Origin: Escherichia coli
GTDB lineage: Bacteria > Pseudomonadota > Gammaproteobacteria > Enterobacterales > Enterobacteriaceae
NCBI RefSeq assembly: GCF_009931435.1
Contig: NZ_CP043414.1
Length of the DNA: 64,000 nucleotides
Reading direction: 5' to 3' (one strand)
Shown: piece after piece, positions 36,949 to 60,679 of the stretch
Layout of the letters: every line of letters starts with the position of its first letter
Position numbering within the stretch: the first letter of the stretch is position 1
Position numbers and translations under genes: made by a program
Notes under the pieces: model-generated
What the model was told of the DNA's origin: nothing
What the model saw: the letters and a program-made list of their open reading frames with translations, nothing else
The model's database searches: none

Positions 36949-36955
36949 AAAACAC

Positions 36956-37882: not shown

Positions 37883-39706
37883 TTAATCGTCTTTCGGTGC
37901 GCGGTTGGCGCGACGACGATCGTTTTCCGTCAGGTGACGTTTACGAATACGGATAGAGGTCGGAGTCACTTCTACCAGTTCGTCATCATCGATGAACTCC
38001 AGAGCTTGTTCCAGAGTCATGCGGATAGGCGGAACCAGAACAACGGCTTCGTCAGTACCGGAAGCACGCATGTTGGTCAGTTTCTTACCGGTCAGACAGT
38101 TTACAGTCAGGTCGTTAGAACGGCTGTGAATACCGATAATCTGACCTTCGTAAACTTCTGCACCGTGACCGAGGAACAGCTTACCGCGATCCTGCAGACC
38201 GAACAGCGCGAACGCGACCGCTTTACCCTGACCGTTAGAGATCAGTACGCCATTCTGACGCTGACCCACTTCGCCCGGACGTACGTCGTCGTAGTGGCTG
38301 AAGGTGGAGTACAGCAGACCAGTACCGGAAGTCATGGTCATGAACTCAGAACGGAAGCCAATCAGACCACGGCTTGGGATCACGTAGTCGAGACGTACGC
38401 GGCCTTTACCGTCTGGATTCATGTTTTTCAGGTCGCCTTTACGTTCGCCCAGCGCCTGCATTACAGAACCCTGATGCTGTTCTTCAACGTCCAGAGTCAC
38501 GTTTTCATACGGCTCTTGTTTACGACCGTCAATTTCACGGAAGATAACTTTCGGACGGGATACCGCCAGTTCGAAACCTTCACGACGCATGTTTTCGATC
38601 AGAACAGACAAGTGCAGTTCGCCACGGCCAGAAACGCGGAACGCATCGGCATCTTCGGTTTCTTCTACGCGCAGCGCAACGTTGTGTACCAGTTCTTTGT
38701 TCAGACGATCCAGGATCTGACGAGACGTTACGAACTTACCTTCTTTACCGCAGAACGGTGAGGTGTTAACGCAGAAGAACATAGAAACGGTCGGCTCATC
38801 AACGGAGAGTGCCGGCAGCGCTTCAACGTTTTGCGTGTCGCAAACGGTGTCAGAAATGTTCAGTTCGCCCAGGCCCGTGATCGCCACGATATCGCCAGCT
38901 TCCGCCAGATCGGTTTCGATACGTTCCAGACCGAGGTGGCCCAGCACTTTACCGACTTTCGCGTTGCGGGTTTTGCCTTCGCTATCGATGATAGTAACTT
39001 GCTGGTTCGGCTTCACTTTACCGCGCTTGATGCGGCCAATGCCGATAACGCCAACATAGCTGTTGTAATCGAGCTGAGAAATCTGCATCTGGAACGGACC
39101 GTCAAGGTCAACGTCCGGCGCAGGAACGTGGTCAACAATTGCCTGATACAGCGGGGTCATGTCTTCTGCCATATCTTCGTGGTCCAGACCCGCGATACCG
39201 TTCAGCGCAGAAGCGTAAACGATCGGGAAGTCCAGCTGCTCGTCAGTCGCGTCGAGGTTAACGAACAGGTCGAATACCTGATCCACAACCCAGTCAGGAC
39301 GCGCGCCAGGGCGGTCAACTTTGTTGATAACAACAATTGGCTTCAGGCCGTAAGCAAACGCTTTTTTGGTTACGAAGCGCGTTTGCGGCATCGGGCCGTC
39401 AAATGCGTCAACCACCAGCAGCACTGAGTCTACCATGGACATTACACGTTCAACTTCACCACCGAAGTCGGCGTGCCCCGGGGTATCAACGATGTTGATA
39501 CGGTAATCATTCCATTTGATAGCGGTGTTTTTCGCGAGGATGGTAATCCCACGCTCTTTCTCCAAATCGTTGGAGTCCATCACGCGCTCTTGGGTTTCGG
39601 CACGAGAGTCGAACGTACCGGATTGTTGGAGCAGCTTGTCTACCAGGGTGGTTTTACCATGGTCTACGTGCGCGATGATGGCGATATTACGCAATTTTTC
39701 GATCAC
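37883..39706 (-). CDS. typA: Ribosome-dependent translational GTPase TypA/BipA
   Basis: 607 aa [29 protein letters not shown]... with EF-G-like GTPase motifs. Confidence 0.95.
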
Positions 39707-39856
39707 AACTTTGCCTCAGGCATTAGAAATAGCGCGTTATTGTACACGGATTAATCGCACTACAAAACAGGATCACAAACATCCTCCGCAAACAAGTATT
39801 GCAGAGTCCCTTTGTGATCGCTTTCACGGAGCATAAAAAGGGTTATCCAAAGGTCA

Positions 39857-39905
39857 TTGCACCAATATGGTGCTTAATGTTTCCATTGAAGCACTATATT
39901 GGTGC
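39857..39905 (+). promoter_or_regulatory. NtrC (NRI) enhancer binding sites upstream of glnA
   Basis: Palindromes TGCACCAATATGGTGC (39857-39872) and GCACTATATTGGTGCA (39890-39905), plus further TGCAC/GTGCA half-sites up to about 39950. Confidence 0.7.
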
Positions 39906-39978
39906 AACATTAACATCGTGGTGCAGCCCTTTTGCACGATGGTGCGCATGATAACGCCTTTTAGGGGCAATTTAAAAG

Positions 39979-39995
39979 TTGGCACAGATTTCGCT
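39979..39995 (+). promoter_or_regulatory. sigma54 promoter glnAp2
   Basis: TTGGCACAGATTTCGCT fits the -24 GG / -12 GC sigma54 consensus (TGGCAC-N5-TTGCW-like), about 85 nt upstream of the glnA start. Confidence 0.75.
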
Positions 39996-40078
39996 TTATC
40001 TTTTTTACGGCGACACGGCCAAAATAATTGCAGATTTCGTTACCACGACGACCATGACCAATCCAGGAGAGTTAAAGT

Positions 40079-41488
40079 ATGTCCGCTGAACACGTACTGA
40101 CGATGCTGAACGAGCACGAAGTGAAGTTTGTTGATTTGCGCTTCACCGACACCAAAGGTAAAGAACAGCACGTCACTATCCCTGCTCATCAGGTGAATGC
40201 TGAATTCTTCGAAGAAGGCAAAATGTTTGACGGCTCCTCGATTGGCGGCTGGAAAGGCATTAACGAATCCGACATGGTGCTGATGCCAGACGCATCCACC
40301 GCAGTGATTGACCCGTTCTTCGCGGACTCTACCCTGATTATCCGTTGCGATATCCTTGAACCAGGCACCCTGCAAGGCTATGACCGTGACCCGCGTTCCA
40401 TCGCGAAGCGCGCTGAAGATTACCTGCGTTCTACTGGCATTGCCGACACCGTACTGTTCGGGCCAGAACCTGAATTCTTCCTGTTCGATGACATCCGTTT
40501 CGGCGCGTCTATCTCCGGTTCTCATGTTGCCATCGACGATATCGAAGGTGCATGGAACTCCTCCACCAAATATGAAGGTGGTAACAAAGGTCACCGTCCG
40601 GCAGTGAAAGGCGGTTACTTCCCGGTTCCGCCGGTAGACTCTGCTCAGGATATCCGTTCTGAAATGTGTCTGGTGATGGAACAGATGGGTCTGGTTGTTG
40701 AAGCCCATCACCACGAAGTAGCGACTGCTGGTCAGAACGAAGTGGCTACCCGCTTCAATACCATGACCAAAAAAGCTGACGAAATTCAGATCTACAAATA
40801 TGTTGTGCACAACGTTGCACACCGCTTCGGTAAAACCGCGACCTTTATGCCAAAACCGATGTTCGGTGATAACGGCTCCGGTATGCACTGCCACATGTCA
40901 CTGTCTAAAAACGGCGTCAACCTGTTCGCTGGCGACAAATATGCAGGTCTGTCTGAGCAGGCGTTGTACTACATTGGCGGCGTAATCAAACACGCTAAAG
41001 CAATTAACGCCCTGGCAAACCCGACCACCAACTCTTACAAGCGTCTGGTCCCGGGCTACGAAGCACCGGTAATGCTGGCTTACTCTGCACGCAACCGTTC
41101 TGCGTCTATCCGTATTCCAGTGGTTTCTTCTCCGAAAGCACGTCGTATCGAAGTCCGTTTCCCGGACCCAGCGGCTAACCCGTACCTGTGCTTTGCTGCC
41201 CTGCTGATGGCCGGTCTTGATGGTATCAAGAACAAGATCCACCCAGGCGAAGCCATGGACAAAAACCTGTATGACCTGCCGCCAGAAGAAGCGAAAGAGA
41301 TCCCACAGGTTGCAGGCTCTCTGGAAGAAGCACTGAACGAACTGGATCTGGACCGCGAGTTCCTGAAAGCCGGTGGCGTGTTCACTGACGAAGCCATTGA
41401 TGCGTACATCGCTCTGCGTCGCGAAGAAAATGACCGCGTGCGTATGACTCCGCATCCGGTAGAGTTTGAGCTGTACTACAGCGTCTAA
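40079..41488 (+). CDS. glnA: Glutamine synthetase
   Basis: 469 aa [35 protein letters not shown]... recognised as GlnA. Confidence 0.97.
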
Positions 41489-41549
41489 TAGTTGAAGTTG
41501 TACTACCCGGTGCAAAGAAGGCCGGGATTTAGTTGCCGTGGAAACTTTC

Positions 41550-41576
41550 AGCCCATCTCTGCATGGGCTTTTTTCT
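41550..41576 (+). terminator. Intrinsic terminator in glnA 3' UTR
   Basis: Hairpin AGCCCAT-CTCTGC-ATGGGCT followed by TTTTTTCT; an additional hairpin CCCGGTGCAAAGAAGGCCGGG at 41506-41526. Confidence 0.6.
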
Positions 41577-41662
41577 CCGTAACTTCTTTGATGCTTCGCG
41601 CTTTTTATCCGTAAAAAGCTATAATGCACTAAAATGGTGCAACCTGTTCAGGAGACTGCTTT

Positions 41663-42712
41663 ATGGCAACAGGCACGCAGCCCGATGCTGGGCAGATCCT
41701 CAACTCACTGATTAACAGTATTTTGTTAATTGATGACAACCTGGCAATCCATTACGCCAACCCCGCCGCGCAACAACTACTCGCCCAAAGCTCCCGCAAA
41801 TTGTTTGGTACGCCGTTACCGGAACTGTTGAGCTACTTCTCATTAAATATCGAGCTGATGCAAGAAAGTCTGGAGGCGGGGCAAGGTTTTACCGATAACG
41901 AAGTGACGCTGGTGATCGACGGTCGCTCGCATATCCTTTCTGTGACGGCCCAGCGTATGCCGGACGGCATGATCCTGCTGGAGATGGCACCGATGGATAA
42001 CCAGCGCCGCTTAAGTCAGGAACAGCTACAGCACGCCCAGCAGGTTGCTGCCCGTGATTTAGTGCGCGGCCTGGCGCATGAGATTAAAAATCCGCTTGGC
42101 GGTTTACGTGGCGCGGCCCAGTTGCTCAGCAAAGCATTACCTGACCCGTCACTGCTGGAATATACCAAAGTGATTATTGAACAGGCGGATCGGTTGCGAA
42201 ATCTGGTCGACCGTCTGTTGGGGCCGCAACTGCCCGGTACGCGCGTTACCGAAAGTATTCACAAAGTGGCTGAACGCGTGGTGACGCTGGTGTCGATGGA
42301 ACTGCCGGACAACGTGCGGTTGATTCGTGATTACGACCCCAGCCTGCCGGAACTGGCGCACGACCCGGATCAAATTGAACAGGTATTGCTGAATATTGTG
42401 CGCAATGCGCTACAGGCACTGGGGCCGGAAGGTGGTGAAATCATTCTGCGTACCCGCACCGCGTTTCAACTGACCTTACACGGCGAGCGCTATCGGCTGG
42501 CGGCGCGGATTGATGTGGAAGATAACGGGCCAGGCATTCCGCCTCATTTGCAGGATACGCTGTTTTACCCGATGGTCAGCGGCCGCGAAGGTGGCACCGG
42601 GCTTGGCTTATCCATCGCCCGTAATTTGATTGATCAGCATTCAGGCAAAATTGAATTTACCAGTTGGCCAGGTCATACCGAGTTCTCGGTTTACCTGCCT
42701 ATCAGGAAATAA
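41663..42712 (+). CDS. glnL: Nitrogen regulation sensor histidine kinase NtrB (NRII)
   Basis: 349 aa ORF with H-box HEIKNPLGG. Confidence 0.95.
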
Positions 42713-42723
42713 AGGTGACGTTT

Positions 42724-44133
42724 ATGCAACGAGGGATAGTCTGGGTAGTCGATGACGATAGTTCCATCCGTTGGGTGCTTGAACGTGCGCTCGCTGGAGC
42801 AGGTTTAACCTGTACGACGTTTGAGAACGGCGCGGAAGTGCTGGAGGCGCTGGCGAGCAAAACACCGGATGTACTGCTTTCAGATATCCGTATGCCGGGA
42901 ATGGACGGGCTTGCGCTGCTCAAGCAGATTAAACAGCGCCATCCGATGCTTCCGGTCATCATTATGACCGCACATTCCGATCTGGATGCTGCCGTCAGCG
43001 CCTATCAACAAGGGGCGTTTGATTATCTGCCCAAACCGTTTGATATCGACGAAGCCGTGGCGCTGGTTGAGCGCGCCATCAGCCATTATCAGGAACAGCA
43101 GCAACCGCGTAATGTTCAGCTTAACGGCCCGACGACCGATATCATCGGCGAAGCGCCAGCCATGCAGGACGTGTTCCGGATTATCGGTCGGCTTTCACGT
43201 TCTTCTATTAGCGTGCTGATTAACGGCGAATCCGGCACCGGTAAAGAACTGGTCGCTCATGCCCTGCATCGCCACAGTCCTCGAGCCAAAGCGCCGTTTA
43301 TCGCGCTGAATATGGCGGCTATCCCGAAGGATTTGATCGAATCAGAACTGTTCGGTCACGAGAAAGGCGCGTTTACCGGCGCGAATACCATTCGTCAGGG
43401 GCGTTTTGAACAGGCCGATGGCGGCACGTTATTCCTCGATGAAATTGGCGATATGCCGCTCGATGTACAGACGCGTTTGCTGCGCGTGCTGGCAGACGGT
43501 CAGTTTTATCGCGTTGGCGGCTATGCGCCGGTGAAAGTGGATGTGCGGATTATCGCTGCGACCCATCAGAATCTCGAACAGCGGGTACAGGAAGGCAAGT
43601 TCCGTGAGGATTTGTTCCACCGCCTGAACGTTATCCGCGTTCATCTGCCGCCGCTGCGTGAGCGTCGGGAAGATATTCCCCGTCTGGCACGCCATTTTTT
43701 ACAGGTTGCCGCGCGCGAACTGGGCGTAGAAGCGAAGTTGCTGCATCCGGAAACCGAAGCCGCGCTGACGCGTCTGGCATGGCCGGGTAACGTGCGCCAG
43801 CTGGAAAACACCTGCCGTTGGTTAACGGTGATGGCCGCCGGGCAGGAAGTGTTGATTCAGGATTTGCCTGGCGAACTGTTTGAATCAACGGTTGCGGAGA
43901 GTACTCCGCAAATGCAACCGGACAGTTGGGCAACGCTGTTAGCGCAGTGGGCAGACAGAGCGCTGCGTTCCGGTCATCAAAATTTGCTTTCCGAAGCGCA
44001 GCCTGAGCTTGAGCGGACGTTACTGACGACCGCGTTGCGACATACGCAGGGGCATAAACAGGAAGCTGCGCGGCTACTTGGCTGGGGGCGTAACACCCTG
44101 ACGCGGAAGTTAAAAGAGCTGGGGATGGAGTGA
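42724..44133 (+). CDS. glnG: Nitrogen regulation response regulator NtrC (NRI)
   Basis: Start at [19 protein letters not shown] (469 aa); receiver domain, sigma54-activator AAA+ domain (GESGTGKE), C-terminal HTH. Confidence 0.95.
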
Positions 44134-44244
44134 TTCACAGCTTGTGTGTAAAGATTGATTATTGAGCGCAAATTGCTGGTATTTTGCGCTTTACTGTTCC
44201 GATAAGTTCAGTATGATCTTGCCCGGAAAACGGGGAGAGTCATT

Positions 44245-44355
44245 ATGCTGGAATCAATAATTAATCTGGTATCGAGTGGCGCAGTTGACAGCCACACACC
44301 GCAAACTGCCGTTGCTGCCGTGCTGTGTGCTGCGATGATTGGGCTGTTTAGCTGA
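44245..44355 (+). CDS. yshB: Small membrane protein YshB (36 aa)
   Basis: Short ORF MLESIINLVSSGAVDSHTPQTAVAAVLCAAMIGLFS preceded by GGGGAGAG; below the ORF-track size cut-off; location between glnG and hemN as I recall for yshB. Confidence 0.75.
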   Translation: MLESIINLVSSGAVDSHTPQTAVAAVLCAAMIGLFS

Positions 44356-44364
44356 AGCTCGTTG

Positions 44365-44500
44365 TTTATGCCGGATGCGGAGAAAGTCGTAGGCCTGATA
44401 AGACGCGACCAGCGTCGCATCAGGCATCATGCTCAGATGCCGGATGCCGGATGCCGGATGCCGGATGCCGGATGCCGGATGCAGCGTAAACGCCTTATCC
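44365..44500. repeat. REP/BIME cluster containing a 5-copy GCCGGAT heptanucleotide tandem repeat
   Basis: REP-like palindromes (GCCTGATAAGACGCGACCAGCGTCGCATCAGGC; GCGTAAACGCCTTATCCGGCCTAC) flank five complete GCCGGAT units at 44439-44473. Confidence 0.6.
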
Positions 44501-44618
44501 GGCCTACAAAAGCAATAATTTCAACAGGTTTTCTTAACCAGCGCATCAGGCAATCTTGTTCTCAGCACATTGATGGCGCTTTCGTTTTCTACTTTGTAAA
44601 CGAAGCGCCATTCACCAT

Positions 44619-45992
44619 TTAAATCACTCGTGAGAACTGCTGCATCCGCGCTTTCTGGCGCAGATAGGTATCAAAGCACATGCAAATGTTGCGGATCAGC
44701 AGGCGACCTTTCGCCGTTACCTGAATCCCCTTCTCATCCACATCCACCAGCCCATCTTTTGCTAACGGGGCAAGCAGCTTGAGATCTTCTGCAAAGTAGT
44801 CAGCGAAGTGCAAATCCCACTGTTGCTCAATGGGGGCATAATCCAGACGGAAGTTGCAGATGAGCGACTTAATCACATCGCGACGAATACAGTCATCACG
44901 CGTTAGCGCAATACCACGCCACAGCGCATTGCCTTGTTCATCCACTTGCTGATAGTACTGCTTCAACTCTTTCTGATTCTGCGCGTAGCAGTCGCCAATC
45001 ATGCTAATGGCTGAAACGCCCATCCCCAGCAGATCGGTATCGCCCTGAGTGGTGTAGCCCTGGAAGTTACGATGAAGCACGCCTTCACGTTGGGCCACCG
45101 CCAGCTCATCATCCGGGCGAGCAAAGTGATCCATACCGATAAACTGATAGCCCGATTGTGTCAGGAAGGCGATGGTTTCCTGCAGGATATCGAGTTTTTG
45201 CTGCGGACTCGGCAGGTCAGCATCTTTGATTTTACGCTGAGCAGCAAAAATGGTCGGCAAATGCGCGTAGTTAAAGACACTCAGGCGATCGGGGTTAAGT
45301 TCCGCCACGCGTTTCAGGGTAAAGGCGAAACTCTCCGGCGTCTGTTTCGGCAGGCCGTAAATCAGGTCGATGTTGGTGGAAGTAAAGCCAATCTCACGCG
45401 CATGGTTAAGCAGTGCAAAGATGAACTCTTCATCCTGCTCGCGGTTAACCAGACGTTGCACTTCTTTGTTGAAGTCCTGCACGCCCATGCTCAGGCGATT
45501 AAAGCCTTCGGCGCGTAAATGATCGAGTACATCCAGTTCGATTTCCCGCGGATCGACTTCGATCGAAATCTCCGCATCGGCATTGAACTGGAAGTTTTCG
45601 CGCAGCAACTTCATCAGTCGGCTGATTTGCGCTTTGTTCAGATACGTCGGCGTACCACCGCCCCAGTGCAATTGGCTGACGTGACGCCCGGCGAACAGCG
45701 GTGCACGATGGACGATTTCTTGCTCCAGCGCGTCCAGATACTGATCGGCCTTGTGCTGCTGGCGAGTAACAATCTTATTGCAACCGCAGAAGTAACAAAG
45801 CTTATGGCAGAACGGGATATGTACGTAGAGAGATAATGGACGCTCAGGATAGCGCGCCACGGCTTGTAAAAACGCCTGTTCGCCGAAGTCTTCTGAAAAC
45901 TCCAGCGCGGTCGGGTACGAGGTGTATCGTGGCCCGGAATAGTTATATTTCTGGATCAGGGCCAGATCCCAGTCGATTTGCTGTACAGACAT
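44619..45992 (-). CDS. hemN: Oxygen-independent coproporphyrinogen III oxidase (radical SAM)
   Basis: Start at MSVQQIDWDLALIQKYNYSGPRYTSYPTALEF (457 aa); radical-SAM CxxxCxxC (CHKLCYFCGC). Confidence 0.95.
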   Translation of the reverse strand: MSVQQIDWDLALIQKYNYSGPRYTSYPTALEFSEDFGEQAFLQAVARYPERPLSLYVHIPFCHKLCYFCGCNKIVTRQQHKADQYLDALEQEIVHRAPLFAGRHVSQLHWGGGTPTYLNKAQISRLMKLLRENFQFNADAEISIEVDPREIELDVLDHLRAEGFNRLSMGVQDFNKEVQRLVNREQDEEFIFALLNHAREIGFTSTNIDLIYGLPKQTPESFAFTLKRVAELNPDRLSVFNYAHLPTIFAAQRKIKDADLPSPQQKLDILQETIAFLTQSGYQFIGMDHFARPDDELAVAQREGVLHRNFQGYTTQGDTDLLGMGVSAISMIGDCYAQNQKELKQYYQQVDEQGNALWRGIALTRDDCIRRDVIKSLICNFRLDYAPIEQQWDLHFADYFAEDLKLLAPLAKDGLVDVDEKGIQVTAKGRLLIRNICMCFDTYLRQKARMQQFSRVI

Positions 45993-46180
45993 GCTCACTC
46001 CTTCCGATGGCGTCTCTGGCGGCTACGGCGTACCGGCGAATGCCCGTTTCGGGTCATCAGCCGGTTGCGCAGCCACTTTTGTCGCCGCGACAACCGCTGT
46101 AGTTTAACGAATAACCACACCAGATAACATATAACCGGAAGGGTTATCAGCAGAACGGGAAGGCCCACGGCGGCAATCCG

Positions 46181-46690
46181 TTAGTTGCCCCGCAGCAGAC
46201 GCATCATGTCTTCTTGCTTCTCGTCTTCTTCCTCTTCTTCGTCATCGTCATAAGAGAGGCCGAGTTTCTGCATCAACTCATCAATACGATCCAGTTTGGC
46301 ATCCACCCAGGATTGCTCTTCGGCGCTCAGGGTTTCGCCTGCCTCCAGACGTTCCAGCAGCGCATCCAGACGCTCATCCGTTTCCAGTAACTCCAACTCC
46401 GCCTGCGGTGAAAGCATAGGTTTCTCACTCTTCGGTTTGTGCTGTTTGGTGACTTTTTCAGTCACGCCCAATGGAATAGGGGTTTTACTGCCAATACGTG
46501 GATCTTTCGGTGCGTTCTGGCCTTTGCTGCCTGACGTGGTGTTACCGCCCGCTGCGCGGCTGCCCGGCGCATGACCACGACGTTTTTTCTGACGCTTACG
46601 GTCACGAGCTTCCTGATCCAGCTCCTCGCGTGTTTTTCGACGCGCTTTTGCATGACCTTTGCTGCGTGAGTTTGAAGATGATGGTTTCAT
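46181..46690 (-). CDS. yihI: Der GTPase-activating protein YihI
   Basis: 169 aa from [19 protein letters not shown]...; very basic N-terminus, acidic C-terminus ([10 protein letters not shown]). The ORF-track start at 46753 would run into the CsrC terminator and is rejected. Confidence 0.9.
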
Positions 46691-46758
46691 AATGGTTCGT
46701 CTTTTAGCCGTTTTATTCAGTATAGATTTGCGGCGGAATCTAACAGAAAGCAAGCAAA

Positions 46759-47001
46759 GAAAAAAGGCGACAGATTACTCTGTCGCCTTTTTTCCTGACT
46801 CATAACCCTTAACGGGTCTTACAATCCCTGCAGGCCGCCAACACACCCTGTTTTTCCATTAGCCGGAACAATCCGTGTTGATTCCATTTCCGTTTAATTA
46901 CGTCTCCGGACGTTTGTCTTCCTGACAATCCTCTGTCTTCGCCTCCTGGCGCTCCTGACCCTCATCCTGAGTCATTGTTCCTGTTAGCGTCCTCGCTCTA
47001 T
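46759..47001 (-). ncRNA. csrC: CsrC small RNA (CsrA-sequestering)
   Basis: Minus-strand sequence reads ATAGAGCGAGGACGCTAACAGGAACAATGACTCAGGATGAGGGTCAGGAGCGCCAGGAGG..., with many GGA motifs, ending in hairpin GGCGACAGAGTAATCTGTCGCC plus U-tract; matches CsrC as I remember it. Ends +/- a few nt. Confidence 0.85.
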
Positions 47002-47271
47002 GGGTGCTACTTTACGCCTTTGCTTTAAACAAACAATCAACCGCCATCAGTATTTGCACATTTTCAGAGTTTTATATAAAAGCAATTAACTGATTTATAT
47101 AGCTTATTTGACATGCATCGCAGAATTTTCTCTGCTATTTCGCATAAAGACTATCGGCAATGTCTCACAAAGCGTATGGCTTTTACTTACAACGCTCACG
47201 CCGAAAAATCCGCCTTTTATTATGGTTCAGGTATAATCGCCGCAAAGCTTTGACTGACGGAGACGACCGCT

Positions 47272-47904
47272 TTGACTAATTTGAATTATCAACAGACGCA
47301 TTTTGTGATGAGTGCGCCTGATATTCGCCACCTACCTTCCGATACCGGAATTGAAGTGGCTTTTGCAGGCCGTTCCAACGCAGGTAAATCCAGCGCGCTG
47401 AACACGCTGACTAACCAGAAAAGCCTGGCGCGGACCTCAAAAACCCCAGGGCGCACCCAGCTTATCAACCTGTTTGAAGTGGCTGACGGCAAGCGTCTGG
47501 TTGACCTGCCCGGCTATGGCTACGCGGAAGTCCCGGAAGAGATGAAGCGCAAATGGCAGCGCGCGCTCGGCGAGTACCTCGAAAAACGTCAGAGCCTGCA
47601 AGGCCTGGTGGTACTCATGGATATTCGCCATCCGCTGAAAGATTTGGATCAGCAGATGATTGAGTGGGCGGTAGACAGCAATATCGCCGTGCTGGTGCTG
47701 CTGACCAAAGCGGACAAACTGGCAAGCGGCGCACGTAAAGCGCAATTGAATATGGTGCGTGAAGCGGTGCTGGCGTTTAACGGTGATGTGCAGGTTGAAA
47801 CGTTCTCTTCGCTGAAGAAGCAAGGCGTGGACAAGCTGCGGCAGAAACTGGATACCTGGTTTAGCGAGATGCAGCCTGTAGAAGAAACGCAGGACGGCGA
47901 ATAA
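47272..47904 (+). CDS. engB: Ribosome biogenesis GTPase EngB (YihA)
   Basis: 210 aa ORF starting at TTG ([23 protein letters not shown]...); G1 motif GRSNAGKSS. Confidence 0.9.
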
Positions 47905-47924
47905 TTTTCTTGCCTTAATGCTTG

Positions 47925-47975
47925 TGCCGGATGTGGCGTATCCGGCTCTGGCATAGGCCTGAGAAGCATCAGGCA
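47925..47975. repeat. REP-like palindromic element downstream of engB
   Basis: GCCGGATGTGGCGTATCCGGC ... GCCTGAGAAGCATCAGGC inverted repeats. Confidence 0.5.
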
Positions 47976-47998
47976 TTACGATCTTTTCTTTCGCCCAA

Positions 47999-48107
47999 TA
48001 AAAAACGCCCCAGTCATTACTGACTGGGGCGGCTAAAATATTCAGCCAAATCCGATTACGTGAAGTAAAAGGTCTGAAAGATAGAACATCTTACCTCTGT
48101 ACCCTAC
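47999..48107 (-). ncRNA. spf: Spot 42 small RNA
   Basis: Minus-strand sequence GTAGGGTACAGAGGTAAGATGTTCTATCTTTCAGACCTTTTACTTCACGTAATCGGATTTGGCTGAATATTTTAGCCGCCCCAGTCAGTAATGACTGGGGCGTTTTTTA recognised as Spot 42; lies just downstream of polA. Confidence 0.9.
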
Positions 48108-48254
48108 GCGACTAACTTTACTCTTTTTTGTTCAGTTCAGAAAGCATTTTTTGTAATTTTTTTTCAGTTGTTGCATAGGAATTTCTAATAGCCATCACAA
48201 AACGTGACAGCTTATGTTGCTTACTTACGAAAAAAGGGCATGTTCAGGCGAATC

Positions 48255-51041
48255 TTAGTGCGCCTGATCCCAGTTTTCGCCACTCCCCACTTCCACCAGC
48301 AGCGGCACATCCAGACGGGTACAGTTTTCCATCAGTTGATGAATCTGTTTCGCGACGGCATCGACATCATCTTTATGAACTTCAAATACCAGTTCATCGT
48401 GTACCTGCATAATCATACGCACACGCGGTTGCTCAGCTTGTAACCACGCATCAACGGCAATCATCGCTCGTTTGATAATGTCGGCGGCGGTTCCCTGCAT
48501 TGGCGCGTTAATGGCTGCACGTTCAGCCGCTGCACGACGAGCACCATTGCTGGATTTGATATCCGGCAGATACAGACGGCGTCCGTCCAGCGTTTCAACG
48601 TAGCCCTGTTCTTTCGCCTGCGCACGGGTGCGCTCCATATACTCCAGCACGCCTGGGTAGCGTTCGAAGTAAAGGTCCATGTACTTCTGCGCTTCTTTAC
48701 GTGGAATGTTCAATTGTCGCGCCAGACCGAAAGCACTCATGCCATAAATCAGACCAAAGTTGATCGCTTTCGCGCTACGACGTTGCTCGCTGGTGACGGT
48801 TTCCAGTGGCAAACCAAACACTTCTGCCGCCGTAGCCCGGTGGATATCTTTTCCTTCCGCGAATGCGGTCAGCAAGCCTTTGTCACGCGAGAGATGCGCC
48901 ATAATGCGCAGTTCAATCTGCGAGTAGTCCGCCGAGACAATCACATAATCCTCTGGCGCAATAAACGCCTGGCGGATACGACGACCTTCTTCGTTACGCA
49001 CCGGAATGTTTTGCAGGTTAGGATCGGTTGACGATAAACGTCCCGTAGCGGTTACTGCCTGGTGATAAGAGGTATGTACACGCCCGGTTTTCGGGTTGAT
49101 CATCAGCGGCAGCTTGTCGGTGTAGGTCGATTTCAGCTTCGCCAGACCACGATACTCCAGAATCACTTTTGGCAACGGATAGTCCAGCGCCAGTTCTTCC
49201 AGTACCTCTTCCGACGTTGACGGCGCACCACCCGGCGTTTTCTTCAGCGGTTTAATGCCCTGTTTTTCAAACAGAATGGTTTGTAACTGCTTGGTGGAAG
49301 AAAGGTTAAATTCTTCACCTGCAATTTCATGCGCTTTCTTTTCCAGCTCAGCCAGACGTAGAGTGAGCTCTTCAGAATGATTATGAAGCACTTTCGGATC
49401 GATCTTCACACCGTTACGTTCAATGCGTGAAAGCACCGGCACCAGCGGCATTTCGATGTTCTCGAAGACGTTCAACGGCCCTTTGTGTTTTTGCAGATCC
49501 GGCCACATTTTCAGATGCAACTGCAAGGTGACATCTGCATCTTCGGCGGCGTAACGTCCGGCCTCTTCGAGGGCAATCTGGTTAAAGGTCAGTTGATTTT
49601 TGCCTTTACCCGCAATCTCTTCAAAAGTGATGGTTTTGTGCTTCAACCAACGTTCCGCGAGGCTGTCCATATCGTGACGCCCGGCAACGCTATTGAGAAT
49701 GTAGGACTCCAGCATGGTATCAAACGCAATCCCACGCAGCTCAATGCCGTAGTTCGCCAGAATACCGCGATCGTATTTCAGGTTTTGCCCGACCTTCAGC
49801 GCCTTTTCATCTTCCAGCAGCGGTTTTAGCAACTCGAGTGCACGCTCGCGAGAGATTTGATCGGGCGCATCAAGATAATCATGAGCAACCGGAATATATG
49901 CCGCTACGCCTGGCTCGATAGCAAAAGAAAGCCCGACCAGGTTAGCAGAGATGTTATCAAGGCTGTCGGTTTCGGTATCAAATGCAAATACCGGCGATTT
50001 TTCCAGCTTCGCAATCCACGCTTTCAGTGTTTCTTCATCAAGGATGGTGACGTAGTTGTCATAAGAAATCACCGTTGCCGTCACTTCTGGCGCTTCGTCT
50101 GCAACACTGGTTTCCTGCGGCTTCGCGGCTGGTTTTGCCCCTTTGGCCTGTAACCATTTGCCCGCTTCGACATCAGCAGTCCAGCGTTTGAACTCATACT
50201 TTTTGAACAGCCCCAACAACTCTTCCGCCGCCGGTTGCTGCACTTCTAGTTGTTCACAGGTAAGCTCCAGTTCAACGTCGGTTTTAATCGTCGCCAGCTG
50301 GTAAGAGAGATAAGCCACTTCTTTGTTTTGCTCGAGCTTCGCCGCCATTGTTTTCGCGCCACGGAAGCTCAACCCAGCAATTTTTTCTGGCTCGGCATAC
50401 AGCGTATCCAGTCCGCCAAGACCTTGTAGCAATGCTTGCGCGGTTTTTTCACCGACGCCCGGTACGCCAGGGATGTTATCAGAGGAGTCACCCATCAGCG
50501 CCAGGAAGTCGATGATCAGTTCTGGCGGCACGCCGTACTTATTCACCACCTCTTCCGGTCCGAGGATGGTATTCGTCATGGTATTGATAAGCGTAATATT
50601 TGGCGTCACCAGCTGCGCCATATCTTTATCGCCTGTGCTTATCAGCACCGGACGCCCGGCTTTTTCGGCTTCGCGCGCCAGAGTACCGATAACGTCGTCC
50701 GCTTCTACGCCAGAAACCGCCAGCAGCGGCAGTCCCATCGCTTTAACCATCGCGTGCAGAGGTTCGATTTGTGCTCGCAGATCGTCCGGCATTGGCGGAC
50801 GATGTGATTTGTAATGTTCAAACAGTTCATCACGAAAGGTTTTTCCCTTGGCGTCAAAGACCACCGCTGCATGCGTCGGTTTATATTGCATGATTAGACT
50901 GCGCAGCATGTTGAGGACACCATACATCGCACCGGTCGGCTCGCCTGCGCTGTTAGTCAGCGGGGGAAACGCGTGATAGGCGCGATAAAGATAAGATGAA
51001 CCATCTACAAGGATAAGTGGATTTTGGGGGATCTGAACCAT
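48255..51041 (-). CDS. polA: DNA polymerase I
   Basis: 928 aa [44 protein letters not shown]... recognised as PolA. Confidence 0.97.
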
Positions 51042-51154
51042 AATGTCCGTGCCTGTTTATCAGATTATGGGTAAAGGATGCCACAGACAGGATGAAAACA
51101 TGAGTTTTTCACCGCTTTTCGTGAAAATCTTTTGTAGATCTTCTGGATCGCTCG

Positions 51155-51163
51155 CAAATCGTC
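51155..51163. promoter_or_regulatory. DnaA box in the polA upstream region
   Basis: TGTGGATAA (reverse complement TTATCCACA, perfect DnaA-box consensus) about 115 nt upstream of the polA start; a second near-consensus box TGTGGATAG at 51306-51314. Confidence 0.5.
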
Positions 51164-51404
51164 ATGTGGATAACTTTGTGCATAAATTATTTACATCGCT
51201 TTTAATTTATTATCATGCTTTTTACAGCATGATGTTTGTCTTTGCTTTTCATACAGTTAAATATAAAGCCATCCCTAATAATTGTGATAATGGGATTTTT
51301 TCTAATGTGGATAGATATGAATTATTTTTCTCCTTAAGGATCATCCGTTATTTGGGGCGTTTTCTGCTAAAATCGGCGCCTTGCGCTTCTTTAGCGCACT
51401 GTCT

Positions 51405-52337
51405 ATGGCTAACCTTTTGAATAAATTCATTATGACGAGAATACTCGCTGCGATAACCCTTTTGCTGAGTATCGTATTGACCATTTTGGTCACTATTTTT
51501 TGCTCCGTCCCGATCATCATTGCCGGGATTGTAAAACTATTGCTACCTGTGCCAGTCATTTGGCGAAAGGTTTCGCGTTTTTGTGATTTTATGATGTATT
51601 GCTGGTGTGAAAGTCTGGCGGTATTACTGCATCTGAACCCACACCTGCAATGGGAAGTTCACGGGCTGGAAGGGTTAAGTAAGAAGAACTGGTATCTGCT
51701 TATTTGTAACCACCGTAGTTGGGCAGATATTGTCGTACTGTGCGTGCTGTTTCGTAAGCACATTCCGATGAATAAATATTTCCTCAAGCAGCAGCTTGCC
51801 TGGGTGCCATTTCTTGGCCTGGCATGCTGGGCGCTGGATATGCCGTTTATGAAGCGTTATTCCCGCGCTTATTTATTACGTCATCCGGAGAGACGTGGTA
51901 AAGATGTTGAAACCACACGGCGTTCTTGTGAAAAGTTTCGCCTGCACCCCACCACCATTGTCAATTTCGTTGAAGGCTCCCGTTTCACGCAAGAAAAACA
52001 TCAGCAAACCCACTCCACTTTTCAAAACTTGTTGCCACCAAAGGCGGCAGGCATTGCGATGGCGCTAAATGTACTGGGTAAACAATTCGATAAACTGCTT
52101 AATGTTACGCTGTGTTATCCCGACAATAACCGTCAGCCGTTCTTCGATATGTTAAGCGGTAAACTGACGCGAATTGTCGTACATGTGGATTTACAGCCTA
52201 TTGCCGATGAGTTACATGGCGACTACATCAATGACAAAAGCTTTAAGCGCCATTTTCAGCAATGGCTGAACTCACTGTGGCAGGAAAAAGACCGACTTCT
52301 GACGTCGTTGATGTCATCACAGCGTCAGAATAAGTAA
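51405..52337 (+). CDS. yihG: Acyltransferase-family inner membrane protein YihG
   Basis: Start at [14 protein letters not shown] (310 aa); acyltransferase HxxxxD-like motif NHRSWADI. Confidence 0.9.
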
Positions 52338-52377
52338 GTTTTACTCGCCTCTGAATGAGCAGAGGCGAGTGAGTATT

Positions 52378-53808
52378 TTAATGAACAAAACGTCCGGCAC
52401 GAGACATAAATTCTTCTTCGCTCATTTCCTGTCCGTTAAAAACAACTTTACCCGGTGTATAACGCAGTTGCAGCGAGGCGGTATTGTTGTCAATCGTGAT
52501 TAACTGAAACATCTGACCTAATGTCATCATCCCGCTGATTTGTTTATCAGCCTGCTTTTGCGCTTTTTCAGCATCCATTCCTTCAGATAAATTAAGCTGT
52601 TTTGCGGTTTCTGTGACGACATTAAGCGGTAACTTCACATCAAAAATGAGCGATTTAATATCTTTGTTTGTGGATGATGAGGATTTGGCTGGGTCGGCAA
52701 TACTGATATCCAGATTGGCATTTAGTTCGCCGAGTGCGTTCTTCCATCTTACCGGTTGTTTAATGGTCGGCTCACTTTTTTGTAATAACGGTAAATACTC
52801 TTTGAACAATGCAGCATTCACTTCTTGCAGAGCAACTTCATCGTTTGCTAACTCAGGGTGTGCAGCAAGCTGCTTCTGCATCGCAATGTTATACTGAATG
52901 ATAAATTGGCGCACCGCTGAGGGATCAATAGATTCCGCAATCAAGGACCACTCACCACTACCGAGTTGCTGATTTCCTTTTGTTAACTTATCAAGTTCGT
53001 AGGTCAGATTGACATTGATATAATCTTTGTCTTTAACGCGATCCAGCCTGGTTTTTGCAACGAAAGCATCGATTTGGGCAACGTCTTCTCCCTGATTGAT
53101 AATGTTAATCTGATTGAATTTCGACTCGCTTTCGCCAACCGGAAATTTCTTTTCTTCTAATCGCGTTAGAGAATCAATGGTAAAACTTTTCGCCGTTACT
53201 TTATTCAATGGCGATAATTCCAGAACAAGATCTTCGACTTTGCCTTCAATATCCAGATTAGACAATGAACTACCATCACCATTAAAAGTAAACTGGCCCT
53301 CACCAAAAGAAAACTTTCCATATTTTGCAGGGGCAACATCTAATGTCGTGGAGAATGAGCCACCAAACGCGAATCGCAATGTCGCTTCCACGGGCGATTT
53401 ATTTTTTGCGGCGATAAATAGCGGTTGTGTCAGTTCATTATTCACTAAGTTCACTTTTGCCGCTGCCAGTGCGGGGATGACATTACCACGCATTAACATT
53501 GTGATGGGCAACGGACCGTGCTCAACATCCACATCAAATGCAACTTTCTGGCCTGGCTTGATATTGAGATCGGGTGCACCGTTATCAAATGTCATTTGCA
53601 TTTGAAAATGAGAATTAAAAAAGCCTTTGTCAAAGTTTTTATAACTTAACGTCATATCGTAGGCATGTTCACCTTTCTCTTTAGCATCGTTAAAATCTTT
53701 AATGAACTTTTCGACACCAGGCTGAATTTGCGTACCTGTGTACCATGTGCCACCACCCCAGATTACGGCTAACGCAACAATAACACCTGTAGCTGACTTA
53801 CGTATCAT
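52378..53808 (-). CDS. yihF: DUF945-family protein YihF
   Basis: Start taken at MIRKSATGVIVALAVIWGGG (476 aa); ORF track extends 14 codons further upstream. Confidence 0.85.
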   Translation of the reverse strand: MIRKSATGVIVALAVIWGGGTWYTGTQIQPGVEKFIKDFNDAKEKGEHAYDMTLSYKNFDKGFFNSHFQMQMTFDNGAPDLNIKPGQKVAFDVDVEHGPLPITMLMRGNVIPALAAAKVNLVNNELTQPLFIAAKNKSPVEATLRFAFGGSFSTTLDVAPAKYGKFSFGEGQFTFNGDGSSLSNLDIEGKVEDLVLELSPLNKVTAKSFTIDSLTRLEEKKFPVGESESKFNQINIINQGEDVAQIDAFVAKTRLDRVKDKDYINVNLTYELDKLTKGNQQLGSGEWSLIAESIDPSAVRQFIIQYNIAMQKQLAAHPELANDEVALQEVNAALFKEYLPLLQKSEPTIKQPVRWKNALGELNANLDISIADPAKSSSSTNKDIKSLIFDVKLPLNVVTETAKQLNLSEGMDAEKAQKQADKQISGMMTLGQMFQLITIDNNTASLQLRYTPGKVVFNGQEMSEEEFMSRAGRFVH

Positions 53809-53962
53809 ATAAATATTCCCTGATAAAACAGCAAAACTTTGAATATCCACTTATGCTGAAATAATGTCCAGCGGCAGGACGCATTATCAGAATGTATTTA
53901 TATTTATTAAATAATAAAAAAAGCCCGTGAATATTCACGGGCTTTATGTAATTTACATTGAA

Positions 53963-54589
53963 TTATTTTTTCTCGGACAGATATTTCACAGTATCAGCAT
54001 ACTGCTGAACAAAAACATCCATATTGCTGGTATCCATACCCTGCGGATTCAGCTGATATTTACCGTTAACAAACATCGCCGGAACGCCACGCAATTGCAC
54101 GTCGGCTGCGGCTTTTTCCTGCTGAGCCACCAGAGATTTCACCACGAAGCTGTTCCAGGCCGCGTCGTACTCTTCACCTTTAATACCTGCGTTGATAAAT
54201 ACATCGCGGATATCAGATGCAGAACGAATGGTCTGGGTTTTCTGTACGCCTTCAAACAGCGGAACAGTCACTTTGTCTTCCACGCCCAGCGCCATCGCCA
54301 CTGCCCATGCCTGAGTCAGTTCTTTGCCCAGATCCCCACCCATGAAGTTGACGTGGTATTTAGTCATTTTCACGCCTTCCGGCAGTTTTTTCTTCACGTT
54401 CTCAGAAATATGCAGAACTTCTTCAAACTGATAGCAGTGCGGGCAGAAGAAAGAGAAAAACTCCAGCACTTGCGGCGCGCCAGCAACCGGTTTTTCCAGG
54501 GTGGTGTACTGTTTACCATCTTCATACTGCGCCGCCGATGCGCTAAACGCTAAAACTAAACCAGCCAGCGCCAGCCAAATCTTTTTCAT
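53963..54589 (-). CDS. dsbA: Periplasmic thiol:disulfide oxidoreductase DsbA
   Basis: 208 aa ORF with signal peptide and active-site CPHC ([12 protein letters not shown]). Confidence 0.95.
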
Positions 54590-54605
54590 GATCTACTCTC
54601 TCCGA

Positions 54606-55592
54606 TTAATACATAGGTGTTAATTGCAAAGGGGGTTCTTGTAGAACTTTTGCCTGTTCTATAAAAGTCGCCGTCTGTCGCAGCCAGTAATCTTCCCCGG
54701 TTAACCACGGGAAATTTTTCGGGAACGCGGGATCAGCCCAACGCCGCATTAGCCAGGCAAGATAATAAACCAAACGCATGGCGCGTAAAGGTTCAATCAG
54801 TCCGATTTCAGCGATATCGAACTCGCTAAATTCTTCATAAGCCTCAATAATAGTTTCCAGTTGCATCCGCTGCTCAGCTTTATCGCCATTGAGCAACATC
54901 CACAAATCCTGAATAGCCGGACCATTACGTGCATCATCCAGATCAACAAACATTGGACCATCGCGCCAGAGGATATTCCCGGCGTGGCAGTCTCCATGTA
55001 GCCGCAGAACGGTGAAATCTTCCCGCCAGTGTGCTGTAACGGCGGCGATCAGCTCATCTGTCGCTTTCAGGAATGCCGCTTTCAACCCGGAAGGTATCAG
55101 TGTGGCGTCCTCAAACAGCTTGCGTGGCTCAATGAGATATTCATTCAGACCGATGGTCGGGCGATGGATAAAAAGCTGTTTGCGCCCCGTCTGGTGCATA
55201 CGCCCTAAATAACGCCCAACAGCTTCCATCTGATCGATATTATCAGCTTCGAACTGGCGACCACCGACGCTTGGAAAAACAGCGAAATAAAATCCCTGAT
55301 GATTCAATAAAGTCTGACCGTTAAAGGCCACAGGCGCTGCGACCGGAACTTCATCGTTAACCAGCTGCAACGCAAATTGATGTTCTTCGAAGATTTGATC
55401 GGCTGTCCAACGTTCAGGGCGATAAAATTTGACGACAAAACGTCGACGATCTTCGTCCTGAAATTGATAGACACGGTTTTCATAGCTGTTAAGCGGGGTA
55501 AGACCGGAATCCACCCGGATCCCATGCTCAAACAGAGCGTCCATGATGGTATCCGGGTGTAGTGTCTGGAAAGTAAAAGCGCTGTTGTTCAT
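54606..55592 (-). CDS. srkA: Stress response Ser/Thr kinase SrkA (YihE/RdoA)
   Basis: 328 aa ORF MNNSAFTFQTLHPDTIMDALFEHGIRVDSG...; kinase-like HGDCHAGNILW; immediately upstream of dsbA. Confidence 0.9.
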   Translation of the reverse strand: MNNSAFTFQTLHPDTIMDALFEHGIRVDSGLTPLNSYENRVYQFQDEDRRRFVVKFYRPERWTADQIFEEHQFALQLVNDEVPVAAPVAFNGQTLLNHQGFYFAVFPSVGGRQFEADNIDQMEAVGRYLGRMHQTGRKQLFIHRPTIGLNEYLIEPRKLFEDATLIPSGLKAAFLKATDELIAAVTAHWREDFTVLRLHGDCHAGNILWRDGPMFVDLDDARNGPAIQDLWMLLNGDKAEQRMQLETIIEAYEEFSEFDIAEIGLIEPLRAMRLVYYLAWLMRRWADPAFPKNFPWLTGEDYWLRQTATFIEQAKVLQEPPLQLTPMY

Positions 55593-55668
55593 CCCATCAT
55601 CCGGAAAACATTACGAATGATGAAGGATATCATTTCACGATGATTTTGGTTGCGCCGCTTACAAGCTT

Positions 55669-55938
55669 TTACTCTTTAATTACGCCACGTGCGCGTAATA
55701 GCGCCGTTTTGAAATCTTCTTCATAATCTTTCTGCAAACCCGGGATCACCGCATCTTTCGCGGAATCACGCATTTTCAGGTGATAGATCAGAATGTCATC
55801 CGTCAAATCCGCCAGTTCGCCGTCAAAACCTGACTCTTTCGCCAGTTTCTGCAAAAATTGCAGCAGGTTAAGGTCTGGTTCTTTTTGCCAGGCTGGCTGG
55901 AGGAGTTCAATAACTTCATTCAGACGTTTACATTTCAT
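55669..55938 (-). CDS. yihD: Small protein YihD (DUF1040)
   Basis: 89 aa from [29 protein letters not shown]...; ORF track starts 10 codons earlier. Confidence 0.85.
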
Positions 55939-56007
55939 AGTGATGCTCCTTACTCTTGAGACAGACACGTTAGCAGGGTCAATCCCACAATAAAAGAGGC
56001 GATATCG

Positions 56008-57183: not shown

Positions 57184-57303
57184 ATGCCTGGCAGTTCCCT
57201 ACTCTCGCATGGGGAGACCCCACACTACCATCGGCGCTACGGCGTTTCACTTCTGAGTTCGGCATGGGGTCAGGTGGGACCACCGCGCTAAGGCCGCCAG
57301 GCA
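57184..57303 (-). rRNA. rrfA: 5S ribosomal RNA
   Basis: 120 nt matching E. coli 5S rRNA on the minus strand (TGCCTGGCGGCC...GGAACTGCCAGGCAT), with one apparent difference near the 5' end (CTTAGCG rather than the CGTAGCG I recall). Confidence 0.95.
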
Positions 57304-57396
57304 AATTCTGTTTCATCAGACCGCTTCTGCGTTCTGATTTAATCTGTATCAGGCTGAAAATCTTCTCTCAATCCGCCAAAACATCTTCGGCGTTGT

Positions 57397-60301
<2,905 letters not shown>

Positions 60302-60560: not shown

Positions 60561-60602
60561 ATAACATGTAGTTAAAACCTCTTCAAATTTGCGGTGCAAA
60601 TT

Positions 60603-60679
<77 letters not shown>

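What the first reader, a model, noticed from the sequence alone, without database searches (positions are those of the whole stretch)
47999..48107. Spot 42 (spf) sRNA downstream of polA
A 109 nt sequence matching Spot 42, with its terminator hairpin, lies on the minus strand between polA and engB.
Basis: partly seen in the sequence, partly recalled or inferred. Interest (0 to 1): 0.25.

Follow-up and report, generated by a model that had tools for sequence, protein, structure and literature searches.

The report
Spot 42 (spf) small RNA gene
This is the ordinary, textbook Spot 42 (spf) regulatory RNA gene of Escherichia coli, identical base for base to the laboratory strain's copy and sitting in its usual place between polA and engB, so nothing here is new.

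Summary
The observation and the interpretation are both correct. Window 47999-48107 (minus strand) is a 109-nt sequence that matches Rfam RF00021 (Spot_42) over the full model at 122.8 bits (gathering score 80, E 4.5e-25). It is 100% identical to spf of E. coli K-12 MG1655. It folds into three hairpins, and the last is a GC-rich stem followed by U6 (an intrinsic terminator). It carries the 15-codon spfP frame (MFYLSDLLLHVIGFG). It lies between polA (927/928 aa identical to K-12) and yihA/engB (210/210 aa). The published CRP site is present exactly, 74-95 nt upstream, and a -10 hexamer (TAAAGT) sits at -13..-8. In 111 homologous loci from four gammaproteobacterial orders, the polA-spf-engB order holds in 90. 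The E. coli fold is kept in 99.4% of pair cells, with compensatory changes in 9 pairs. The first 61 nt are strongly complementary to the K-12 galK start region. Mechanism, taken from the literature: a glucose-induced, CRP-repressed, Hfq-dependent base-pairing sRNA that also encodes SpfP, an inhibitor of CRP. Only two things differ from K-12: a common -40 G>A promoter allele, and a rare shortened REP-like spacer downstream of the terminator. Already known; low interest.

The parts
47999..48107 (-). spf gene: the 109-nt Spot 42 RNA (+1 = 48107, 3' end = 47999)
   Evidence: Rfam RF00021 at 122.8 bits against a gathering score of 80. 100% identical to K-12 spf b3864.
48060..48107 (-). Hairpin 1 (RNA nt 1-48). 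Its 5' end and apical loop are among the published single-stranded seed regions. It sequesters the spfP Shine-Dalgarno (GAGG, 48094-48097) and start codon.
   Evidence: The minimum-free-energy fold and the RNAalifold consensus agree. 19 pairs are 99.9-100% paired in 70 distinct homologs, with only wobble changes at pairs 6:43 and 7:42. Sequestration of the ribosome-binding site is described in PMC8916003.
48042..48089 (-). spfP: a 15-codon ORF plus stop, inside the RNA (RNA nt 19-66)
   Evidence: It translates to MFYLSDLLLHVIGFG*. Its position matches K-12 b4837. A 15-aa frame is kept in 108 of 111 homologous loci. Translation and CRP binding were shown in E. coli (PMC8916003).
48048..48059 (-). 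Unpaired linker (RNA nt 49-60, GUAAUCGGAUUU). This is the third single-stranded base-pairing region and contains the single GGA (48051-48053).
   Evidence: Unpaired in both the minimum-free-energy and consensus folds. Pairs with the galK Shine-Dalgarno region in RNAduplex. The GGA is the published CsrA site (PMC8916003, PMC12612679).
48031..48047 (-). Hairpin 2 (RNA nt 61-77)
   Evidence: Pair 61:77 shows the compensatory change G-C to A-U in 10 homologs.
48000..48030 (-). Intrinsic terminator: a 10-11 bp GC-rich stem (RNA nt 78-101) followed by G and U6
   Evidence: Terminator scan and fold. 8 of its 10 pairs show compensatory double changes across homologs.
48115..48120 (-). -10 hexamer TAAAGT at -13..-8
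   Evidence: Read directly from the sequence. All 111 homologous loci have a TAnnnT hexamer (mostly TAnAGT) at the same distance: TAAAGT 38, TAGAGT 36, TACAGT 18, TACATT 17, TATTAT 1, TATAGT 1. The simple sigma-70 scan found no two-hexamer promoter because the -35 is weak.
48147..48164 (-). A-rich tract AAAAAAAATTACAAAAAA at -57..-40, a possible UP-element-like promoter feature. It includes the -40 A (48147) that is G in K-12.
   Evidence: Sequence. Most columns are 90% or more conserved across 111 loci in a MAFFT alignment. The allele comes and its frequency. The UP-element reading is my inference.
48181..48202 (-). CRP-cAMP binding site TTTTGTGATGGCTATTAGAAAT, centred at -84.5
   Evidence: Exact single match in the window, with none expected by chance. 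The site sequence is the one given for E. coli spf in PMC3295665, citing Polayes et al. 1988. TGTGA starts at -92 or -91 in 48 of 111 homologous loci.
47905..47998 (-). Spacer between the spf terminator and the convergent engB stop codon, with two REP-like palindromes. It is 30 nt shorter than in K-12.
   Evidence: Alignment. This exact form is found full-length in 1 of 5426 complete E. coli genomes. It is not part of the RNA.

Best explanation
This is the spf gene of an Escherichia coli-type chromosome. It is transcribed from its own sigma-70 promoter, starting at 48107 on the minus strand and ending at the intrinsic terminator at about 47999. The product is the 109-nt Spot 42 RNA. According to the published work on the identical K-12 sequence, transcription is high in glucose and repressed by cAMP-CRP. 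The RNA binds Hfq. It uses three single-stranded regions to pair with the translation-initiation regions of mRNAs for the uptake and catabolism of non-preferred carbon sources (galK, srlA, fucI, nanT, gltA and others), lowering their translation and stability. This forms a multi-output feed-forward loop with CRP. The same transcript is also a weak mRNA for the 15-aa protein SpfP, which binds CRP and blocks activation of some promoters, mainly at high temperature. Shown here: sequence identity, covariance-model membership, fold, terminator, ORF, promoter elements, CRP-site sequence, synteny, cross-species covariation, and complementarity to galK. Inferred from the literature, not tested here: expression, CRP repression, Hfq dependence, target repression and SpfP activity.
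For: Rfam RF00021 matches the full model at 122.8 bits against a gathering score of 80, E 4.5e-25. The sequence is 109/109 identical to K-12 spf, and the region is present in 5424 of 5426 complete E. coli genomes. The three-hairpin fold has an energy of -40.6 kcal/mol, z = -5.08. The intrinsic terminator is found by the scan. The spfP frame MFYLSDLLLHVIGFG equals K-12 b4837. The published CRP site is present exactly at 48181-48202 (PMC3295665). The -10 hexamer sits at a fixed distance in all 111 homologous loci. The order polA - spf - convergent engB holds here and in 90 of 111 loci from Enterobacterales, Vibrionales, Aeromonadales and Alteromonadales. On 70 distinct homologs the E. coli fold is kept in 99.4% of cells, with 9 pairs changed on both sides; 0 of 500 shuffles reach this, and the slid controls give only 39-52% paired. 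RNAalifold finds the same three hairpins independently. Spot 42 nt 1-61 against K-12 galK -20..+39 gives -43.5 kcal/mol with 46 paired bases, against -22.0 +/- 3.8 for shuffles, 0 of 1000 as good. The mechanism comes from PMC8916003, PMC12612679 and PMC3295665.
Against: Nothing argues against the identification. Several limits apply. No expression data exist for this particular strain. The simple sigma-70 scan reports no two-hexamer promoter because the -35 is weak. The CRP site is centred at -84.5, which is far upstream for a simple steric repressor, so how it represses is not something I could verify. The homologs were collected by exact match to RNA nt 13-37, so the invariance of the hairpin-1 apex and of the first SpfP codons is partly forced by that sampling. 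The galK sequence was taken from K-12, not from this genome.
Confidence: 0.97

Rival explanations
1. The locus acts mainly as a tiny protein-coding gene (spfP), and the RNA is only its messenger, not a base-pairing regulator.
For: The 15-codon frame with a GAGG Shine-Dalgarno is intact. A 15-aa frame is kept in 108 of 111 homologous loci. SpfP is translated and binds CRP (PMC8916003).
Against: The two roles are not exclusive, and the literature shows both. The Shine-Dalgarno and the AUG are buried in hairpin 1. The stop-codon mutant RNA still represses targets (PMC8916003). The extensive complementarity to galK is far beyond shuffles. Hairpins 2 and 3, which lie outside or at the end of the ORF, covary. 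Conservation of the frame is confounded by conservation of the RNA seed sequences and by my search pattern.
Confidence: 0.02
2. The sequence is intact but silent or altered in expression in this strain, because of the -40 G>A promoter change or the shortened REP-like spacer downstream.
For: Both differences from K-12 are real. The short spacer is very rare, found in 1 of 5426 genomes.
Against: The 61-mer carrying the -40 A is identical in 1487 of 5417 complete genomes, so this is a common natural allele. The -10 hexamer, the CRP site, +1 and the terminator are all unchanged. The spacer lies after the terminator and outside the RNA.
Confidence: 0.01
3. A chance resemblance, or merely the 3' untranslated tail and terminator of polA with no independent RNA product.
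For: The scan found no terminator-like site between the polA stop codon (48255) and spf +1. polA transcripts may therefore read through to the spf terminator. That is my inference.
Against: The E-value is 4.5e-25 and the identity is 100%. A -10 hexamer is conserved at a fixed distance from +1 in all 111 loci. The Aeromonas homologs keep the RNA without polA upstream. Spot 42 has been known as a discrete, abundant RNA since the 1970s (PMC8916003).
Confidence: 0

Closest known systems
Spot 42 RNA / spf of Escherichia coli K-12 MG1655 (b3864; Rfam RF00021)
   Same: All 109 nucleotides, the three-hairpin fold, the terminator, the -10 hexamer, the CRP site, the embedded spfP frame, and the neighbours polA, yihA/engB and csrC.
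   Different: The differences are all outside the RNA: A instead of G at -40, one extra C just after the polA stop codon, and a spacer to engB that is 30 nt shorter and partly substituted.
Spot 42 of Vibrionaceae (for example Aliivibrio salmonicida, PMC3295665) and of Aeromonas
   Same: RNA nt 1-41 are identical. The architecture is the same, as is the polA-spf-engB order in Vibrionales. Rfam scores are 110-124 bits.
   Different: Hairpin 2 has a shorter loop. The terminator stem is changed by compensatory substitutions. SpfP differs at positions 9 and 13-15. In Aeromonas, GAA replaces the GGA and polA is not upstream.
Other CRP-controlled dual-function sRNAs of carbon metabolism (SgrS/SgrT, AzuCR, VcdRP)
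   Same: One transcript serves as both a base-pairing regulator and a small-protein mRNA acting on carbon-source choice (PMC8916003, PMC12612679).
   Different: They are unrelated in sequence and sit at other loci. In SgrST the ORF and the seed are separate, whereas here they overlap.

Membership tests
Spot 42 RNA (Rfam RF00021, spf) | Covariance-model score at or above the curated gathering score, over the full model | tested here: met
   122.8 bits against 80, model positions 1-115 of 115, E 4.5e-25.
Spot 42 RNA (Rfam RF00021, spf) | An RNA of about 109 nt with three hairpins, the last being a Rho-independent terminator | tested here: met
   The minimum-free-energy fold has three hairpins at -40.6 kcal/mol, z = -5.08. 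The terminator has 11 pairs followed by T6. RNAalifold gives the same fold, which is supported by 9 covarying pairs.
Spot 42 RNA (Rfam RF00021, spf) | Conserved 5' half carrying the seed regions that pair with target mRNAs such as galK | tested here: met
   Nt 1-41 are invariant in 70 distinct homologs, although nt 13-37 were fixed by the search pattern. The duplex with K-12 galK -20..+39 is -43.5 kcal/mol, and 0 of 1000 shuffles are as good.
Spot 42 RNA (Rfam RF00021, spf) | Genomic position downstream of polA and convergent with yihA/engB | tested here: met
   polA is 927/928 aa and engB 210/210 aa identical to K-12. The same order is found in 90 of 111 loci. It is described in PMC3295665.
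Spot 42 RNA (Rfam RF00021, spf) | Own promoter with a CRP-cAMP site; transcription repressed by cAMP-CRP and high in glucose | tested here: inconclusive
   The sequence elements are present: an exact CRP site at 48181-48202 and a conserved -10 hexamer. Repression itself cannot be tested with these tools.
Spot 42 RNA (Rfam RF00021, spf) | Hfq binding and Hfq-dependent target repression | not testable with these tools
   The U-rich 3' tail and the A/U-rich linker are present. Binding is known only from experiments on the identical K-12 RNA (PMC8916003).
Dual-function sRNA encoding SpfP | An intact 15-codon ORF (MFYLSDLLLHVIGFG) with a Shine-Dalgarno, inside the RNA | tested here: met
   It is identical in position to K-12 b4837, and the GAGG lies 4 nt before the AUG.
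Dual-function sRNA encoding SpfP | SpfP is translated and binds CRP | not testable with these tools
   Shown only experimentally, in E. coli K-12 (PMC8916003).

The most novel reading that the evidence does not exclude
The only parts that are not textbook are the flanks. The rare shortened REP-like spacer directly after the terminator is seen in 1 of 5426 complete E. coli genomes. It, or the -40 A allele inside the A-rich upstream tract, might measurably change Spot 42 3'-end formation, stability or promoter strength in this lineage. That would give a natural expression variant of a global catabolite-repression regulator.
Probability: 0.04. Interest if true: 0.15.

Novelty: already known. Interest (0 to 1): 0.04.

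Why it matters
It matters only as a correct annotation. Spot 42 is one of the oldest and best-characterised bacterial sRNAs: a regulator of catabolite repression and, since 2022, a dual-function RNA encoding SpfP. Confirming it here adds no new biology. The practical point is that many RefSeq/PGAP E. coli records list no feature under spf, so a covariance-model scan is needed to annotate it.

Tried and rejected
1. The simple sigma-70 scan found no two-hexamer promoter in 47850-48350. I did not read this as absence of a promoter. The -10 hexamer is conserved at a fixed distance in all 111 homologs, and the -35 is simply weak.

2. My first end-finding rule for the homologs (first run of four or more T after nt 85) cut inside terminator loops. 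I replaced it with a rule anchored on the stem.

3. RNAduplex with full-length Spot 42 gave -60.4 kcal/mol, but it paired the terminator with upstream galT sequence (one search failed on a file name). That pairing is an artefact of ignoring intramolecular structure, so I repeated the test with nt 1-61 only.

4. Three primary papers could not be read because they are not held: Polayes 1988 (PMC211256), Beisel & Storz 2011 (PMC3072601) and Beisel 2012 (PMC3343335). The exact published coordinates of the three seed regions, and the experimental evidence for the CRP site, are therefore taken second-hand from PMC3295665, PMC8916003 and PMC12612679.

5. A search for 'polA' in PMC8577784 matched only 'polarity', so I found no information on polA-spf co-transcription.

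6. I considered whether the window comes from strain 2017-02-2CC, the only genome with the same spacer. Over 20 kb, however, no complete E. coli genome reaches 99% identity, so the source is not in that collection.

Full report
**Observation.** On the minus strand, window 48107 down to 47999 reads GTAGGGTACAGAGGTAAGATGTTCTATCTTTCAGACCTTTTACTTCACGTAATCGGATTTGGCTGAATATTTTAGCCGCCCCAGTCAGTAATGACTGGGGCGTTTTTTA, which is 109 nt. The Rfam covariance model RF00021 (Spot_42) matches 47999-48117 (-) over all 115 model positions. The score is 122.8 bits against a curated gathering score of 80, with E 4.5e-25 in an 8-kb scan and 3.6e-24 in the whole window. The ten extra 5' bases are the upstream flank built into the Rfam model. 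RefSeq annotates K-12 spf two bases longer at the 3' end.

**Identity and context.** The intergenic region is present in 5424 of 5426 complete E. coli genomes. Aligned with K-12 MG1655, all 109 RNA positions are identical. Upstream on the same strand lies a 928-aa ORF (48255-51041) that is 927/928 identical to K-12 PolA. Downstream and convergent lies a 210-aa ORF (47272-47904) that is 210/210 identical to K-12 YihA/EngB. The next feature beyond engB is CsrC (46748-47001, 280 bits). This gives the K-12 order polA-spf-yihA-csrC-yihI, with the window inverted relative to the K-12 record.

**Anatomy of the RNA.** The RNA folds into three hairpins: nt 1-48, nt 61-77 and nt 78-101. The energy is -40.6 kcal/mol, z = -5.08, and 0 of 200 dinucleotide shuffles fold as well. 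The third hairpin plus U6 is picked up by the terminator scan, with 11 pairs of which 8 are G-C. RNA nt 19-66 (window 48042-48089) translate to MFYLSDLLLHVIGFG*. This is the small protein SpfP, annotated in K-12 as b4837 at the same offset. Its GAGG Shine-Dalgarno and its AUG lie inside hairpin 1.

**Anatomy of the promoter.** Upstream there is a TAAAGT hexamer at -13..-8 and an A-rich tract at -57..-40. The 22-mer TTTTGTGATGGCTATTAGAAAT occurs at -74..-95 (window 48181-48202), as a single exact match with none expected by chance. PMC3295665 gives this 22-mer as the E. coli spf CRP site, citing Polayes et al. 1988.

**Independent cross-species test.** They come from Enterobacterales, Vibrionales, Aeromonadales and Alteromonadales, and 111 had enough sequence to use.

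- **Synteny.** polA lies upstream on the same strand and engB lies downstream and convergent in 90 of 111 loci. Most of the others simply lack flanking DNA. The exceptions with enough DNA are mainly Aeromonas, which has no polA upstream.
- **Structure.** I aligned 70 distinct sequences including the window. On this alignment the E. coli minimum-free-energy structure is kept in 99.4% of pair cells. Nine pairs show changes on both sides: 8 of the 10 terminator pairs, and pair 61:77 of hairpin 2. No shuffle out of 500 reached the observed values, and sliding the 3' partners by 1-3 columns dropped pairing to 39-52%. RNAalifold, run without my structure, returns the same three hairpins.
- **Hairpin 1.** It is essentially invariant (nt 1-41 are identical in all sequences) and tolerates only G-C to G-U and U-A to U-G changes. 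This is expected if its sequence is constrained by target pairing and by spfP. However, nt 13-37 were fixed by my search pattern, so that part of the invariance carries no weight.
- **Promoter.** A -10 hexamer of form TAnnnT (mostly TAnAGT) sits at -13..-8 in all 111 loci, which supports the transcription start. TGTGA starts at -92 or -91 in 48 of them.
- **SpfP.** The frame is 15 codons long in 108 of 111 loci, with five main sequence variants. That conservation cannot be separated from RNA-level constraint with these data.

**Mechanism.** Because the RNA is identical to the K-12 molecule, the published mechanism is the best explanation. Spot 42 is abundant in glucose. [quoted passage not shown] It binds Hfq, and through three single-stranded regions it pairs with mRNAs for the use of non-preferred carbon sources (galK first, then srlA, fucI, nanT, gltA, sthA and others). 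This forms a multi-output feed-forward loop with CRP. CsrA binds its single GGA and protects it from RNase E. The same transcript encodes SpfP, which binds CRP and blocks activation of some promoters, especially at 42 C when hairpin 1 opens (PMC8916003, PMC12612679).

As a sequence-level check of the pairing step, I compared nt 1-61 of the window's RNA with the K-12 galK region from -20 to +39. They form an interrupted duplex of 46 paired bases at -43.5 kcal/mol that covers the galK Shine-Dalgarno and AUG. Shuffled targets give -22.0 +/- 3.8, and 0 of 1000 are as good. The gal operon is not in the window, so this used the K-12 sequence. Expression, CRP repression, Hfq binding, target repression and SpfP activity are inferred from the literature and were not tested here.

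**Differences from the reference.** All of them lie outside the RNA.

1. Position -40 is A instead of G. The 61-mer carrying it is identical in 1487 of 5417 genomes, so it is a common allele.
2. There is one extra C just after the polA stop codon.
3. The spacer between the terminator and the engB stop codon is 94 nt rather than 124. It has a shortened first REP-like palindrome and a replaced segment. This exact form occurs full-length in only one of 5426 complete genomes, strain 2017-02-2CC.

I see no reason to think any of these affects function. This is the only place where something non-textbook could hide, and I rate that as unlikely.

**Rivals.** Three were considered: a purely protein-coding reading (spfP only), a silent copy, and a polA 3' tail or chance resemblance. 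The evidence is against all three. The Shine-Dalgarno and AUG are sequestered and the stop-mutant RNA remains active (PMC8916003). The promoter elements are intact and the -40 allele is common. The -10 hexamer is conserved, and Aeromonas homologs lack polA upstream. One open detail remains. The scan finds no terminator-like site between the polA stop codon and spf +1, so polA read-through into spf is possible. I could not find literature on this in the held library.

**Verdict.** This is the known spf/Spot 42 gene, already described in full. Interest is low.

Noticed in passing
window 47905-47998: The spacer between the spf terminator and the convergent engB stop codon is 94 nt, against 124 nt in K-12. 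The first REP-like palindrome is shortened and the segment between the two palindromes is replaced. This exact form is found full-length in only 1 of 5426 complete E. coli genomes, strain 2017-02-2CC.
   Followed up: partly
window 48147: Position -40 of the spf promoter is A, where K-12 has G, which extends the A-rich tract at -57..-40. The 61-mer with A is identical in 1487 of 5417 complete E. coli genomes, so it is a common polymorphism.
   Followed up: yes
window 46748-47001 (-); L001 2810-2976; L002 2780-2946: The CsrC sRNA is present (RF00084, 280 bits). In two RefSeq/PGAP E. coli records, a 'hypothetical protein, frameshifted; internal stop' pseudo-CDS is annotated where K-12 has csrC, and most of the listed records carry no feature under spf. 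These look like annotation gaps or artefacts in public records.
   Followed up: partly
window 36000-56000: Over this 20-kb stretch, no complete E. coli genome in the 5426-genome collection reaches 99% identity (the best is 98.9%), although polA and engB are nearly identical to K-12. The source is therefore a lineage not in that collection, or the stretch contains a locally divergent segment.
   Followed up: no
L093 994-1066 (-), Bowmanella denitrificans: A truncated 73-nt Spot 42-like RNA at the orthologous polA-engB locus. It has hairpin 1 (nt 1-40 identical to E. coli) joined directly to a terminator, with no linker region and no hairpin 2. The SpfP frame has no stop at codon 16. It scores 52.9 bits, below the Rfam gathering score of 80, so a standard annotation would miss it.
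   Followed up: partly
L016, L021, L026, L028, L032, L046, L063, L094 (Aeromonas); L113 (Neiella): These homologs have GAA instead of the GGA at RNA nt 55-57, which is the CsrA-binding site in E. coli. Their SpfP ends in ...HVIECG (Aeromonas) or ...HVIE (Neiella). Aeromonas has no polA within the 0.6-6.6 kb of DNA available upstream.
   Followed up: no
window 39788-39895 (-), 10551-10609 (+), 57186-62289 (-): Other Rfam hits in the window: ES222 sRNA (133 bits); a SECIS_3 selenocysteine insertion element (84 bits); and a complete rRNA operon (16S, two spacer tRNAs, 23S, 5S) with a StyR-44 match at 60309-60417.
   Followed up: no
L004 393-458 (+), Vibrio hannami: A RyhB-like match (50.8 bits, just under the gathering score of 55) lies about 3.4 kb upstream of the Vibrio spf gene. 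This fits the report that RyhB is encoded in the neighbouring intergenic region in Aliivibrio (PMC3295665).
   Followed up: no
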